57,884 nt of DNA, taken from Deltaproteobacteria bacterium. GTDB taxonomy: Bacteria > Desulfobacterota > Binatia > HRBIN30. A model generated the notes under the pieces. That model saw only the letters and a program-made list of their open reading frames with translations. It was not told where the DNA came from and ran no database searches. The stretch lies in contig JACQEN010000198.1 in assembly GCA_016200585.1 (NCBI GenBank), positions 1 through 57,884 of the forward strand. The letters are read 5' to 3'. How positions within the stretch are numbered: the stretch's first letter is position 1; each line of letters begins with the position of its first letter. The position numbers and the translations under genes were made by a program. This document shows positions 7,976-51,786 of this stretch, piece after piece.

Positions 7976-8235
7976 ACCACCCCCTGACCCCCTCGTTGCC
8001 CTCCTTGAGGCTTTGCCTACCAGTTCGGTCTGTGCGGGCTTGGCGCCTCAAACCCGACGATGAATCGTCGGGCTGAAACCAGGCACCCCGTGAACGGGGT
8101 GCGGAACAGGTTGGGAGTTTCAATGCTTGCGCCTGCTTCGAGCGGGCGCCTGATTTCAGCCGGGGCATTCATGCCCCGGTCCAAAACGCGCGTTTGGTCA
8201 TTGGCGGGCAAAGCCCCTGCTTGGTAAGGAGGGGG
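7976..8235. repeat. Composite palindromic repeat region: DUF559-type repeat halves at both ends enclosing an inverted pair of REP-like double hairpins
   Basis: ACCACCCCCT (7976-7985) and CCCCTGCTTGGTAAGGAGGGGG (8214-8235) match the repeats at 35323-35357 and 35715-35751. Internal hairpins at 8053-8072, 8083-8102, 8129-8149 and 8160-8179. Confidence 0.75.
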
Positions 8236-10742: not shown

Positions 10743-11267
10743 TTACGGCGCGGGGCAAGCCGTTATGCAGGCGCCATCGGTGTCTTGGCACGTTACGCCG
10801 GAGGCCTGCGCGGTAGCAAGACAATCCTGCAAGCAAGAGAGCTGACTCGGCGTGCCAGGGTCATTGTTGTCAAAACAATCGTTCGCGCATGAACCGGCTG
10901 CAGTTAGGATTCCGTTCGCGCAAAACGTGAATTGCTTGGCGCAATCGACCAAGCAGGTCTTTTGCGGATCCTGAAGGGGCGGCAGGTCGAAACAGCCTGG
11001 TCTGCAGTTCAAATGGTAATTGACCATGCACCCGTGTCTCGTAGAGAAAAAATCCGTCGTGCATGCGTGATTACAAGTGGGAAACAAAGCGGGGGCGCCA
11101 GCACGACACTGCTCCGTGCAAACACGGCGCGTAATCGCAAGCGGCGCAACACACATCCTCAATTGCGCTCCGCATTCGTGCGTGCACGCCTGATCTGTAG
11201 CCCAAGCGTTGCCTGCGGCGAACAACAGAACGACGACAACAAGACCGTCGTATCGGCTAGATCGCAT
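10743..11267 (-). CDS. Secreted cysteine-rich protein with two tandem 10-Cys modules
   Basis: SD GGAGGG before ATG 11267, signal peptide ending AWA, 20 Cys mostly as CxxxC pairs. Confidence 0.75.
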   Translation of the reverse strand: MRSSRYDGLVVVVLLFAAGNAWATDQACTHECGAQLRMCVAPLAITRRVCTEQCRAGAPALFPTCNHACTTDFFSTRHGCMVNYHLNCRPGCFDLPPLQDPQKTCLVDCAKQFTFCANGILTAAGSCANDCFDNNDPGTPSQLSCLQDCLATAQASGVTCQDTDGACITACPAP

Positions 11268-11510
11268 AGCGTGCCCCTCCCGGATAGCGTTATGGCCCCT
11301 GTACGAACACCGCGTCAAGCCGGTGATCGAGTTGTCGATCGGCTCTTGGTATCGCATTCGTAGGGATTTGCCGGCGTAGCCGTTTTGCGTGTCGAGAAAG
11401 TAGTCAAACCCATCGCGGCGTGAGCAAGGCTTAGGCACGACTCGCCGCTGCCGTCTGCGGGACCGCAAGTCTCGAACGACGACGCCTCTTCCAGCGCACG
11501 CTCACGGGTG

Positions 11511-11527
11511 CTGGCATCGCCATTGCT
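11511..11527 (+). promoter_or_regulatory. Sigma54 (-24/-12) promoter of nasTS
   Basis: CTGGCATCGCCATTGCT is GG-N10-GC and close to the TGGCAC-N5-TTGC consensus; lies ~85 nt upstream of nasT. Confidence 0.75.
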
Positions 11528-11611
11528 GAGAACGCTCTCGCTGAATTGATTGAAACGCCGAGAGTGGCTCGCTGGGTCAATTCGGTGCGCGATAGAGATT
11601 TGAGGGTTTCT

Positions 11612-12196
11612 TTGCAGAGCCGATTGCGGGTGATGATTGTCGACGAGAAGGCAGAGCGGGCGGCGCTGATCGAATCGGGTTTGATCGAAGCCGGTTGCGA
11701 GGTGGTGGGCTGCTTGATCGGGCAGTCCGACCTGGAGAGCAAAGTCAGCTCCCTCCAACCCGATGTCATCGTCATCGATATGGAGTGTCCCGACCGCGAT
11801 ACGCTGGAGGACATGTTCCGCACCACGCTGCATCGGCAACACCCGACGGTGATGTTCGTCGACCGCAGCGACAGTGAGTCGATCCGGGCCGCGGTGCAAG
11901 CCGGCGTCAGCGCGTATGTCGTCGGCGGCTTGAGCCCGGAACGTGTGCGGCCGATTCTCGAGGTGGCGATTGCGCGCTTTCAGGAGTTTCAAACCCTGCG
12001 GCGCGAGCTGGACGATGCCAAGTCGAACCTCGAAGAGCGCAAGGTCGTCGAGCGTGCCAAGGGCATTCTGATGAAGCGCCGCGGCATGGCCGAAGACGAG
12101 GCCTTCCGTCTCCTGCGCAAGATGGCCATGGACCGCAAGATACGTTTGGCAGCGCTGGCGCGTGAGATCGTCGCCGCGGCGGAGGTGTTGCTTTGA
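11612..12196 (+). CDS. nasT: ANTAR-domain RNA-binding regulator (receiver-like + ANTAR)
   Basis: PDVIVIDMECPDRDTLE, AVQAGVSAYVV, LEERKVVERAKGILM...EDEAFRLLRKMAM. Probable TTG start at 11612 after GAGGG. Confidence 0.92.
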   Translation: MQSRLRVMIVDEKAERAALIESGLIEAGCEVVGCLIGQSDLESKVSSLQPDVIVIDMECPDRDTLEDMFRTTLHRQHPTVMFVDRSDSESIRAAVQAGVSAYVVGGLSPERVRPILEVAIARFQEFQTLRRELDDAKSNLEERKVVERAKGILMKRRGMAEDEAFRLLRKMAMDRKIRLAALAREIVAAAEVLL

Positions 12197-35276: not shown

Positions 35277-35322
35277 ATCAATACCTGAATCGCCTGAGTG
35301 TACAGGTCTCTTCGACAAGAAA

Positions 35323-35357
35323 CCCCCTCCTTAGTAAGGAGGGGGCAAGGGGGTGGT
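35323..35357. repeat. Left palindromic terminal repeat of the DUF559 cassette
   Basis: CCCCCTCCTTA-G-TAAGGAGGGGG followed by CAAGGGGGTGGT. Confidence 0.9.
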
Positions 35358-35359
35358 TG

Positions 35360-35759
35360 ATGGCCCTGCACTACAACCGCCACAGCGAGCGCGCCAGGCG
35401 CCGCATCTTGCGCGATAGTGCCACCAGCGCTGAAGAGAAGCTGTGATCCGTCCTCAAAGGGCAACAGTTTGGAATCAAGTTTCAGCGCCAACATAGTATT
35501 GACGCCTTCGTCGTCGACTTCTGCGCACCGAGCTGCAAGCTGGCGATCGAGGTAGATGGCGATTCACATTTTCTCGGAAGCCGCACAGCAGTATGATGTT
35601 GAACGAACGGCATATCTTGAAAGCTTCGGCATTCGAGTGCTGCGATTTACGAACATCGACGTCGTTGAGAATATCCAAGTGGTTGTGCACTCAATCATCG
35701 CTGCGGCCAGGATGACCACCCCCTTTCCCCCCTCCTTAGTAAGGAGGGGGGAATTCTGA
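35360..35759 (+). pseudogene. DUF559 / Vsr-like endonuclease pseudogene
   Basis: MALHYNRHSERARRRILRDSATSAEEKL*SVLKGQQFGIKFQRQHSIDAFVVDFCAPSCKLAIEVDGDSHF with TGA at 35444-35446 where Trp is expected; +1 frameshift in the T-run at 35569-35572; then SEAAQQYDVERTAYLESFGIRVLRFTN. Confidence 0.88.
35715..35751. repeat. Right palindromic terminal repeat of the DUF559 cassette (inverted relative to the left)
   Basis: ACCACCCCCT-TT-CCCCCCTCCTTA-G-TAAGGAGGGGGG. Confidence 0.9.
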
Positions 35760-51730: not shown

Positions 51731-51786
51731 AACTCATCCCCCAACCCCCTTCTCTTACCAAGAGAGGGGGCGTAGGGGGGTGAGTT
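51731..51786. repeat. Solo palindromic element related to the DUF559 terminal repeats
   Basis: AACTCATCCCCCAACCCCCTTCTCTT-ACC-AAGAGAGGGGGCGTAGGGGGGTGAGTT; same C-tract/hairpin/G-tract architecture. Confidence 0.65.

What the first reader, a model, noticed from the sequence alone, without database searches (positions are those of the whole stretch)
35323..35759. DUF559 endonuclease cassette bounded by palindromic inverted repeats, with gene-less copies elsewhere: candidate nuclease-repeat mobile system
Seen: a ~430-bp unit in which a Vsr-like DUF559 gene (now broken by a nonsense codon and a frameshift) is enclosed by ~35-bp inverted repeats, each holding the hairpin CCCCCTCCTTA-G-TAAGGAGGGGG plus a GGGGGTGGT tail. 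The left repeat supplies the likely SD and the right repeat encodes the C-terminus. It sits between two co-oriented lipid-metabolism genes. Related sequences without the gene occur at 7976-8235 and 51731-51786, the latter with a different stem sequence that still pairs. Known: RAYT transposases are flanked by and spread REPs; DUF559 is not an established transposase. Inference: an analogous autonomous/non-autonomous system in which a small PD-(D/E)xK-type nuclease recognises and disseminates its palindromes.
Basis: partly seen in the sequence, partly recalled or inferred. Interest (0 to 1): 0.75.

Follow-up and report, generated by a model that had tools for sequence, protein, structure and literature searches.

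The report
Dead nuclease gene inside triplex-forming repeats
A broken copy of a small DNA-cutting enzyme gene sits between two copies of a known three-stranded-DNA repeat whose origin was unexplained, and the same pairing recurs across many bacteria, pointing to the enzyme as that repeat's partner.

Summary
Window 35323-35759 is a DUF559 (Vsr-like) pseudogene, broken by one TGA and one frameshift, between two inverted 36-nt units, each a hairpin plus a G-rich tail.

The tail mirrors the hairpin's purine arm (G to G, A to A/T). That is the BoxC/PIT/"TM" intrastrand-triplex motif, whose authors reported no mobility genes nearby.

Support for a nuclease-repeat link:
- 76 of 101 DUF559 loci from many phyla carry such units in their flanks, about 10-fold denser than the rest of the same loci.
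- Four repeat classes match four protein clades exactly.
- Two same-genome paralogue pairs share homology only within the repeat-bounded block.
- One gene-less doublet keeps the first ~16 nt of the ORF.
- dN/dS is 0.06-0.26.
- E. coli ycjD has a TM about 170 bp downstream.

Against:
- Some genomes hold up to 338 units but no stand-alone DUF559.
- Covariation within the window's own clade is loose.
- No clean empty site or target duplication was found.

Most likely this is a dead copy of a selfish nuclease/triplex-repeat cassette. How it spreads is inferred, with homing favoured. I found no report of the link in six searches.

The parts
35323..35358 (+). Left terminal unit (intrastrand-triplex motif). 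Pyrimidine arm, loop and purine arm form the hairpin at 35323-35345. The linker CAA is at 35346-35348. The G-rich tail GGGGGTGGTT is at 35349-35358. The tail mirrors the purine arm and probably also serves as the ribosome-binding region.
   Evidence: mirror match 10/10; z -3.5; relatives read GGAGGT before the ATG
35360..35759 (+). DUF559 (Vsr-like PD-(D/E)xK) pseudogene. ATG at 35360, premature TGA at 35444-35446, frameshift in or near the T-run at 35569-35572, stop at 35757-35759. The motifs VVDF, IEVDGDSH and YDVERT are still readable.
   Evidence: 73-74% identical over the first ~70 residues to the copy on contig C314 of the same genome
35715..35751 (-). Right terminal unit, inverted. The C-rich tail complement ACCACCCCC is at 35715-35723, the linker TTT at 35724-35726, and the hairpin at 35727-35751. 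It lies inside the 3' end of the reading frame and encodes ..TTPFPPSLVRRG.
   Evidence: z -4.3
51731..51786 (.). Solo unit of another sequence family. The hairpin at 51745-51770 has mirror tails on both sides (51731-51742 and 51775-51786). There is no gene.
   Evidence: z -5.9; the mirror reading by eye from the sequence gives 11/11 on each strand
7976..8008 (.). Degenerate piece of an F1-type unit: the ACCACCCCC tail complement, TGA, and a damaged pyrimidine arm. It abuts the 207-bp repeat.
8214..8235 (.). Degenerate F1 hairpin (CCCCTGCTT GGT AAGGAGGGG, 1 mismatch) on the other side of the 207-bp repeat.

Best explanation
The region is a dead copy of a compact selfish cassette. A roughly 110-120-residue Vsr-like DUF559 nuclease gene is embedded between two inverted intrastrand-triplex motifs. 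These motifs are the known BoxC/PIT/TM repeat: a pyrimidine arm, a purine arm, and a mirror G/T/A tail.

Shown here:
- the anatomy of the cassette;
- that this pairing recurs across phyla;
- that repeat class follows nuclease clade;
- that the repeat-bounded block is the unit duplicated within genomes;
- that gene-less doublets include deletion derivatives;
- that intact genes are under purifying selection.

Inferred:
- The nuclease recognises its cognate folded or paired units and nicks or cuts there.
- The gene then spreads by repair-mediated copying (homing) into gene-less doublets of the same family. The 36-45-nt units would serve as recognition sites and as homology arms.
- The left tail doubles as the ribosome-binding site.
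- The right unit supplies the C-terminus, and in many relatives the stop codon.

The window's copy can no longer make protein.
For: Anatomy.

Triplex rule: over 58 informative of 61 distinct purine arms, the mean mirror match is 0.931. Partner permutation gives 0.762 (highest 0.803 of 1000) and direct reading gives 0.778. Arm A is mirrored by A/T at 159 of 179 positions, and G by G at 354 of 373. Holder et al. 2015 showed triplex folding of the E. coli motif by CD and NMR (abstract and passages).

Association:
- 26 of 36 relatives' loci have flank inverted repeats of at least 16 nt.
- In 72 analysable loci from other phyla, 39 have repeats of at least 19 nt, against 7 of 72 for mismatched flank pairs. 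Of those 39, 32 contain a hairpin.
- 76 of 101 loci carry strict units in the flanks, at 2.73 per kb against 0.27 per kb in the rest of the same loci. G000 has 51 strict units in 5,619 kb, which works out at about 0.009 per kb.

Specificity: classes A-D need 4 changes on the tree, the minimum, and 0 of 200 shuffles were as low.

Unit of duplication: homology between L014 and L032 starts and stops at the outer hairpin ends. Homology between L020 and L036 is confined to a block bounded by composite repeat ends.

Deletion derivative: the doublet at C110:5827-5912 keeps about 16 nt of the ORF start.

Selection: dN/dS is 0.06-0.26 in 6 of 6 pairs. E25, D53, E64, D66, H70 and D79 are invariant in 24 sequences.

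Presence or absence: the L032 element is missing at the orthologous site in G028.

Precedents: Vsr-like homing endonuclease I-Bth0305I. E. coli ycjD has a degenerate unit at its 3' end and TMECO #9 about 170 bp downstream.
Against: - No biochemical evidence exists for any step.
- Units are abundant where no stand-alone DUF559 was found. G015 has 338, G035 has 89 and G012 has 38 class-D matches. PF04480 and a class-D protein query found only a partial match or a domain inside a large ORF.
- F1 hairpins occur in 16 of 35 genomes without a clade-A gene. Five F1-bearing genomes have no DUF559 at E<=1e-5.
- Within clade A the nearest unit's signature needs 30 changes where 7 is the minimum. The shuffled mean is 38.1.
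- Copies within the window's genome are old: 73-74% protein identity over ~70 residues.
- The paralogue L032 branches outside the L012/L014 orthologue pair. Its absence from G028 may therefore be a loss.
- No target duplication or precise empty site was seen.
- The protein has no separate DNA-binding domain, unlike I-Bth0305I.
- Tails also point away from the gene in many loci: 29 upstream and 31 downstream.
Confidence: 0.5

Rival explanations
1. RAYT-like model. The DUF559 nuclease is the enzyme that excises and re-inserts, and so multiplies, the triplex units and doublets themselves. The gene-bearing cassette would be the autonomous copy and the doublets the non-autonomous ones.
For: - Inverted doublets with short spacers and many singlets resemble REPINs.
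- One doublet is a deletion derivative of the cassette.
- Repeat class follows nuclease clade.
- The two full-length RAYT-like genes of this genome flank other REP types, so they do not account for these units.
- Tens to hundreds of units occur per genome.
Against: - A PD-(D/E)xK hydrolytic nuclease of about 110 residues has no known way to join strands. This rests on established knowledge of the fold, not on a test here.
- Unit-rich genomes lack the gene.
- No target duplication was seen.
Confidence: 0.2
2. No enzymatic link. The triplex units are independent repeats that pile up at certain intergenic spots and next to each other. DUF559 genes merely sit in such hotspots or ride along.
For: - Units are abundant without DUF559.
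- Units of other classes sit at the same gene end in relatives, for example L065 and L059.
- Another ~207-bp repeat also lands next to these hairpins.
- Holder et al. link the motifs to rearrangement hotspots (abstract).
Against: - Class-to-clade matching is exact at the deep level.
- The gene is built into the units: the tail acts as ribosome-binding site, and the right unit supplies the C-terminus and stop.
- Nearly the same unit travels with the same gene clade in unrelated phyla, for example L122, L127 and L119.
- The density near genes is about 10-fold that of the adjacent DNA.
Confidence: 0.12
3. Host-side or regulatory role. DUF559 would be a Vsr-type repair or structure-specific nuclease. 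The flanking inverted units would control it, for example by inverting the gene or by blocking transcription or translation. They would not serve mobility.
For: - 'DUF559 domain-containing protein' is enriched (odds ratio 14.3) among predicted targets of programmed inversions in Milman et al. 2023 (table passage).
- A Caulobacter DUF559 protein causes an SOS response when a cytosine methylase is deleted, and was read as a Vsr-like repair enzyme (passage).
- The L012 and L014 loci are inherited vertically within a genus.
Against: - Several divergent copies occur per genome, each with its own repeat class.
- Distribution across genomes is patchy: 24 of 41.
- ycjD is present in only 3378 of 5426 complete E. 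coli genomes.
- Pseudogenes and fragments such as this one are common.
Confidence: 0.1

Closest known systems
BoxC / PIT element / intrastrand triplex motif (TM, TMECO) of E. coli and other bacteria (Holder et al. 2015, PMC4666352; earlier work by Hoyne and Maher as cited there)
   Same: The layout is the same three blocks: pyrimidine arm, short loop, purine arm, a linker of about 3 nt, and a G/T/A block that mirrors the purine arm. Units are 34-37 nt, intergenic, in tens of copies, and often form inverted pairs.
   Different: The window's units belong to another sequence family (CCCCCTCCTT.. rather than CCCTCNCCC..). The paper reports no mobility genes near the motifs, and the word 'endonuclease' does not occur in its text. 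Here the units flank a nuclease gene.
REP/REPIN with RAYT (TnpA-REP) transposases
   Same: A single small nuclease gene is flanked by inverted copies of a palindromic repeat. That repeat is also scattered as doublets and singlets. Several gene-repeat pairs coexist per genome.
   Different: The enzyme is a Vsr-like PD-(D/E)xK nuclease, not an HUH/Y1 protein. The units carry a triplex-forming tail. The RAYT-like genes of this genome have other REPs. Comparison with the GTAG/CGTC tag rests on a paper title seen only in a listing.
EDxHD homing endonucleases (I-Bth0305I; Taylor et al. 2011, PMC3239194)
   Same: Both have a Vsr-like catalytic core and a comparable set of invariant acidic and histidine residues. 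I-Bth0305I is a demonstrated selfish, site-specific DNA cutter.
   Different: I-Bth0305I has an N-terminal NUMOD/HTH DNA-binding region and sits in a group I intron. DUF559 here is a bare ~105-120-residue domain between repeats.
E. coli YcjD and the solved DUF559 protein 3hrl (Neisseria gonorrhoeae)
   Same: They are homologous. The clade-A profile hits 3hrl at 9.3e-19. The YcjD model NF007294 hits relatives at 1e-19 to 1e-29, below its cut-off. ycjD also has triplex units at its 3' side.
   Different: Neither has a known function. ycjD has no unit upstream.
MITEs with an autonomous parent element
   Same: There are terminal inverted repeats, internal-deletion derivatives, and many short copies.
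   Different: There is no transposase of a known class, and no target-site duplication was seen.

Membership tests
DUF559 (PF04480), Vsr-like PD-(D/E)xK nucleases | Profile match above Pfam's gathering score | tested here: met
   52.5 and 35.1 bits against a cut-off of 20.6 for the two halves. The relatives' profile hits PDB 3hrl at 9.3e-19.
DUF559 (PF04480), Vsr-like PD-(D/E)xK nucleases | Conserved acidic and histidine residues (E..D..ExD..H..D) | tested here: met
   These residues are invariant in 24 relatives. The corresponding VVDF, IEVDGDSH and YD motifs are readable in the window.
DUF559 (PF04480), Vsr-like PD-(D/E)xK nucleases | Intact reading frame, meaning a functional gene | tested here: not met
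   TGA at 35444-35446 and a frameshift near 35569-35572.
Intrastrand triplex motif (BoxC/PIT/TM) | Pyrimidine arm and purine arm forming a hairpin with a short loop | tested here: met
Intrastrand triplex motif (BoxC/PIT/TM) | A third block that mirrors the purine arm (G to G, A to A/T) after a short linker | tested here: met
   The left unit scores 10/10. Across families the mean is 0.931 against 0.762 when partners are permuted.
Intrastrand triplex motif (BoxC/PIT/TM) | Match to the E. coli TMECO consensus | tested here: not met
   The arm sequence differs. Compare with Table 1.
Intrastrand triplex motif (BoxC/PIT/TM) | Actual triplex folding | not testable with these tools
   It has been shown only for the E. 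coli motif, by CD and NMR.
REP/RAYT (REPIN) system | HUH/Y1 transposase between the repeats | tested here: not met
   The gene here is DUF559. Y1_Tnp genes lie elsewhere and carry other REPs.
REP/RAYT (REPIN) system | Inverted doublets and singlets of the flanking repeat dispersed in the genome | tested here: met
Homing endonuclease gene (EDxHD type) | Vsr-like catalytic core | tested here: met
Homing endonuclease gene (EDxHD type) | Separate N-terminal DNA-binding region (NUMOD/HTH) | tested here: not met
   Only DUF559 was found, and the proteins are about 105-140 residues.
Homing endonuclease gene (EDxHD type) | Gene-less cognate target sites that the enzyme cuts | tested here: inconclusive
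   Gene-less doublets exist, but at least one is a deletion derivative. Cleavage was not tested.
IS/MITE transposon | Target-site duplication at the ends | tested here: inconclusive
   None was recognisable at the window cassette, at L014/L032, or at the E. coli hrpB-mrcB site.

The most novel reading that the evidence does not exclude
DUF559 nucleases are the missing partner enzymes of the BoxC/PIT/TM intrastrand-triplex repeats throughout bacteria. This would be a second nuclease-repeat partnership, independent of RAYT. A Vsr-like enzyme would read a folded three-stranded DNA element, and each nuclease lineage would maintain or exploit its own repeat family. That would explain both the spread of these repeats and the genome instability around them.
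Probability: 0.45. Interest if true: 0.9.

Novelty: new variant of a known kind. Interest (0 to 1): 0.8.

Why it matters
BoxC/PIT/TM repeats have been known since the 1990s, according to Holder et al. They fold into triplexes in vitro and mark rearrangement-prone sites. Their origin, spread and function are unexplained, and that study reported no mobility genes near them.

DUF559 is a very widespread family of unknown function. It includes E. coli YcjD and a solved structure, 3hrl.

A specific link between the two gives each a testable role. It would add a nuclease of a different fold, and a three-stranded DNA element, to the short list of enzyme-repeat partnerships. It can be tested directly in E. 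coli K-12, which has one ycjD and 23 motifs.

Tried and rejected
1. Empty site for the window cassette. The thiolase/OB-fold side has orthologues in relatives at 73-80% identity. The alcohol dehydrogenase lies on other contigs or far away, and the DNA after the OB-fold gene differs in all 9 relatives inspected. No empty site could be defined.
2. The pair of units at C10:9805 and C10:10942 is not a cassette. It flanks two ordinary genes, which look thioesterase-like and SnoaL-like by eye and were not scanned.
3. AlphaFold2 on the 6-sequence clade-A alignment gave mean pLDDT 51 and pTM 0.40. That is too poor to use, so no fold search was run.
A narrower clade-A alignment was used instead.
5. The built-in control of the class-D pattern search is uninformative, because the pattern is nearly its own mirror image.
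6. The fabI-sapF site in E. coli strains without ycjD holds an efflux operon instead. Only one genome was inspected, and it gives no clean empty site.
8. Literature searches that found no report of the DUF559-repeat link:
   - DUF559;
   - PF04480/COG2852/IPR007569/cd01038;
   - REPIN/RAYT/endonuclease/Vsr;
   - EDxHD/I-Bth0305I;
   - intrastrand or intramolecular triplex;
   - ycjD/boxC/TMECO.
   Papers outside the held library, and all supplements, were not seen.

Full report
THE OBSERVATION

- Two inverted units bound the region. Their arms are 35323-35353 and 35720-35750 (31 nt, 90% complementary). A second pair covers the tails, 35341-35357 and 35715-35731 (17 nt, 94%).
- Each unit holds a perfect hairpin, with an 11-bp stem on the left and a 14-bp stem on the right.
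- The hairpin core occurs 3 times in the window and in none of 100 shuffles. As single-stranded DNA the units fold with z-scores of -3.5 and -4.3.
- Between the units lies a DUF559 reading frame that starts at 35360. It is broken by a TGA at 35444-35446, at the place of the nearly invariant W of 'LW'. It is broken again by a frameshift in or next to the T-run at 35569-35572. It ends at 35757-35759.
- The two halves match Pfam DUF559 at 5.1e-14 (profile positions 4-65) and 1.3e-8 (positions 66-107).
- The neighbours are a thiolase-like gene, a ChsH2-type OB-fold gene and a zinc alcohol dehydrogenase, all on the + strand.

WHAT THE UNIT IS

Each unit is asymmetric. It has a pyrimidine arm, a loop, a purine arm, a linker of about 3 nt and a G-rich tail.

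The window's genome is 5.6 Mb in 369 contigs and 85% complete. It holds several sequence families with this layout.

In every family the tail is the mirror image of the purine arm, with G kept as G and A kept as A or T. In the window, the arm AAGGAGGGGG is followed by CAA and then GGGGGTGGTT.

I tested this rule over all loci held at that point plus the whole genome.
- I took hairpins with a pure pyrimidine arm. A 'candidate tail' was defined only by G-richness of the 3' flank.
- 260 of 552 strand-instances qualified. They gave 61 distinct purine arms, of which 58 were informative.
- The mean mirror match was 0.931. With partners permuted among arms it was 0.762, and the highest of 1000 permutations was 0.803. 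Read directly instead of mirrored, it was 0.778.
- Arm A was mirrored by A/T at 159 of 179 positions, and G by G at 354 of 373.

This is the pairing rule of an antiparallel purine-motif triple helix.

The element is already described. It is the BoxC repeat of E. coli, re-found as the 'potential intrastrand triplex' (PIT) element. Holder et al. 2015 (PMC4666352) studied it as the intrastrand triplex motif, TM or TMECO. I read the abstract, the outline, section 12 with Table 1, and passages. They report:
- 23 copies in E. coli K-12;
- triplex folding by CD and NMR;
- occurrence in more than 260 genomes;
- high numbers in Enterobacteria, Cyanobacteria and Neisseria;
- more rearrangement around the motifs.

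They state that they never found transposase or integrase remnants near the motifs. The word 'endonuclease' does not occur in the text.

The window's units are a different sequence family of the same design. By a strict definition (perfect stem of at least 8, tail match of at least 85%) the genome has 51 such units in several families.

THE LINK TO DUF559

In the window's genome, PF04480 rings at five places.
- An intact gene on C274.
- A gene on C314 whose 3' end is replaced.
- The two halves of the window pseudogene.
- A fragment on C28, below the cut-off but 62% identical over 47 residues to the C314 protein.

All of these lie next to triplex units. The C274 gene belongs to another clade and carries another unit family, with a GAATCCCCC tail and a CCCCCTTT stem.

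The two full-length Y1_Tnp (RAYT-like) genes of the genome are flanked by unrelated REPs.

In 40 related genomes, DUF559 was found in 23, or 24 of 41 counting the window's own.
- Of the 36 relatives' loci I could orient, 26 have an inverted repeat of at least 16 nt, with at most 2 mismatches, between the 5' and 3' flanks. The 10 misses include loci at contig ends (L024, L027), a frameshifted gene (L029) and weak or fused matches (L030, L045).
- The usual form is a hairpin distal to the gene and a tail proximal to it.
- In many loci the right tail encodes the last residues, and the linker carries the stop (..RPPP*, ..PSP*).

I sorted the flanking units by eye into four classes and placed them on a protein tree of 35 sequences.
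- The classes need 4 changes, which is the minimum possible. The shuffled mean is 17.6, and 0 of 200 shuffles were as low.
- Caveats: the L027 label is assumed because its flank is cut off. L002 shows only a left unit. Related sequences share labels by descent.
- One genome can hold several clades, each with its own class. G025 has C and D, G019 has B, C and D, and the window's genome has A and B.

The clade that contains the window's gene (clade A) is spread across phyla. A scan of species-representative genomes gave 550 relatives among 604 candidate stretches. The best 80 loci come from Candidatus Binatia (best, 64%), Nitrospirota, Cyanobacteria, Chloroflexota, Ignavibacteria, Bacteroidota, Patescibacteria and others.
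- Of the 72 loci with enough flank, 39 have a flank inverted repeat of at least 19 nt. Mismatched pairs of flanks give 7 of 72.
- 32 of those 39 contain a pyrimidine/purine hairpin whose arms vary but stay complementary.
- Near-identical units accompany the gene in unrelated phyla, for example the 45-nt repeat of L122.

Over all 101 analysable loci:
- 76 have at least one strict triplex unit in the flanks;
- 28 have tail-inward units on both sides;
- unit density is 2.73 per kb near the gene and 0.27 per kb in the rest of the same loci. For the window's whole genome, 51 units in 5,619 kb works out at about 0.009 per kb.

SIGNS THAT THE CASSETTE IS A UNIT THAT MOVES OR IS COPIED

- Two paralogues in one genome, L014 and L032 in G025, are 85% identical over 448 bp. 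The alignment starts at the outer end of the left hairpin and stops just after the right hairpin, and the flanks are unrelated.
- A second pair, L020 and L036 in G009, is 92% identical over about 630 bp. It is likewise confined to a block bounded by composite repeat ends.
- The L032 element is missing from the orthologous intergenic region of the sister genome G028. On the tree, however, L032 branches outside the L012/L014 orthologue pair, so a loss in G028 is as possible as a gain.
- In the window's genome the units often form inverted doublets with 8-21-nt spacers. The doublet at C110:5827-5912 still carries ATGACGCTCCCTTACA, which matches the first ~16 nt of clade-A genes. It is therefore an internal-deletion derivative.
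- Intact genes are under purifying selection. dN/dS is 0.06-0.26 in 6 of 6 pairs, including both paralogue pairs. Six acidic or histidine residues are invariant in 24 sequences.

AN INDEPENDENT CHECK IN E. COLI K-12

- The one annotated DUF559 gene, ycjD (1351407-1351760, minus strand), ends in ..RRSPSP*, over a degenerate unit.
- Table 1 of Holder et al. places TMECO #9 at 1351204-1351239, about 170 bp past the stop.
- ycjD is present in 3378 of 5426 complete E. coli genomes. One strain without it has an efflux operon at that place.
- The doublet between hrpB and mrcB varies among three strains. It is whole in K-12, collapsed to a single tail-less hairpin in one strain, and absent in ATCC 25922.
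- The relatives' proteins match the YcjD model NF007294 at 1e-19 to 1e-29, below its cut-off. The clade-A profile matches the solved DUF559 protein 3hrl at 9.3e-19.

EVIDENCE AGAINST A STRICT PARTNERSHIP

- The F1 hairpin occurs in 22 of 41 genomes (1 to 52 matches, with a control of 0 or 1). All 6 genomes with a clade-A gene have it, but so do 16 of the 35 without one.
- Five F1-bearing genomes have no DUF559 at E<=1e-5.
- A class-D arm-plus-tail pattern gives 338 matches in G015, 89 in G035 and 38 in G012. In these genomes a looser PF04480 search and a class-D protein query found only a partial match, a domain inside a 1932-residue frame, or nothing.
- The family search also failed to ring in the E. 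coli control although ycjD is there, so some absences may be false.
- Within clade A, the signature of the nearest unit needs 30 changes on the tree where 7 is the minimum. This is still fewer than the shuffled mean of 38.1, and 0 of 200 shuffles were as low.
- I saw no target duplication and no clean empty site anywhere.
- For the window cassette itself, synteny breaks at this point in all 9 relatives inspected.

HOW IT MOST LIKELY WORKS

Shown: the cassette anatomy, the recurrence, the class-to-clade match, the repeat-bounded duplication unit, a deletion derivative, and selection on the protein.

Inferred: the nuclease recognises and cuts its own units.

A hydrolytic PD-(D/E)xK enzyme of this size has no known way to join DNA ends. 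I therefore favour homing. A cut in a gene-less doublet would be repaired from a gene-bearing copy, with the 36-45-nt units acting as recognition sites and homology arms.

A Vsr-like homing endonuclease exists as a precedent. It is I-Bth0305I, described by Taylor et al. 2011 (abstract and passages). It has an extra DNA-binding region that DUF559 lacks.

Three rivals remain:
- a RAYT-like role in multiplying the units themselves;
- no enzymatic link at all;
- a host or regulatory role.

The regulatory rival draws on two papers. [quoted passage not shown] A Caulobacter DUF559 protein drives an SOS response in a methylase mutant (passage).

The window's own copy is dead whichever reading holds.

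- 51731-51786 is a solo unit of a further family with mirror tails on both sides. It folds as a long imperfect palindrome (z -5.9).
- 7976-8235 is mostly a copy (8009-8215) of a separate ~207-bp repeat. Its first 14 listed copies elsewhere in the genome are 88-97% identical. It is about 75% like the repeats beside the RAYT-like gene on C366. It lies between degenerate pieces of an F1 unit.

NOVELTY

The repeat is known, and DUF559 is a known family of unknown function. I found no report of the link between them in six full-text searches. Two later reviews that cite Holder et al. do not mention it either (passages). Subscription papers outside the library, and all supplementary files, were not seen.

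Noticed in passing
window 8009-8215: A copy of a ~207-bp repeat made of four REP-like hairpins. The query segment 7976-8236 gave 30 BLAST hits in this genome, and the first 14 listed copies elsewhere are 88-97% identical. It is about 75% similar to the repeats beside a RAYT-like gene on contig C366. Here and on C178 it abuts triplex-motif hairpins, as if those hairpins were its landing sites.
   Followed up: partly
G000 contigs C342:8187-8522 and C366:620-964 (loci L006, L007): Two full-length Y1_Tnp (RAYT-like) genes, each with its own REP type. L006 has GCCGGAGGCT-type hairpins on both sides. L007 has tandem ~160-bp four-hairpin units.
   Followed up: partly
L162 (E. coli K-12 NC_000913.3) 11041-11860: ycjD (DUF559) ends over a degenerate triplex unit. 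A partial duplicate of its own 3' coding end follows, and then TMECO #9. Upstream there is a 16-bp-stem hairpin of another kind.
   Followed up: partly
L169, L170, L171 (E. coli hrpB-mrcB spacer): The TMECO doublet is whole in K-12, reduced to one tail-less hairpin in strain 07_3337, and absent with diverged borders in ATCC 25922. The collapse joins the left arm of one hairpin to the right arm of the other.
   Followed up: partly
window 35277-35322 and loci L059-L068: The DNA after the ChsH2-type OB-fold gene differs in all 9 relatives inspected. In L065 a class-C doublet of triplex units sits at the same gene end, and L059 has a degenerate one. In the relatives whose matches were listed, the alcohol dehydrogenase lies on another contig or far away on the same contig.
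   Followed up: partly
linkers of the units: The 3-nt linker is most often TTA, CTA or TCA on the G-rich strand. That reads TAA, TAG or TGA on the other strand, and many DUF559 genes use it as their stop codon.
   Followed up: no
class-D units (L012, L014, L032) and E. coli 'mm' motifs (Table 1): A conserved G opposite A inside the hairpin stem (CCCTCGCCCC.. against ..GGGGAGAGGG) recurs in distant genomes. A mismatch in the folded form might matter to a Vsr-like enzyme.
   Followed up: no
The genome search control genomes: The PF04480 family search never rang in the E. coli control genome, even at E<=1, although ycjD is annotated as DUF559 in K-12. The first-look filter can therefore miss real members.
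   Followed up: no
L045 (G002:C110), L164 (G035:C101), L031 (G007:C3): DUF559-like domains also occur inside very long open frames of 1360-1932 residues. These are a different architecture from the small repeat-flanked genes.
   Followed up: no
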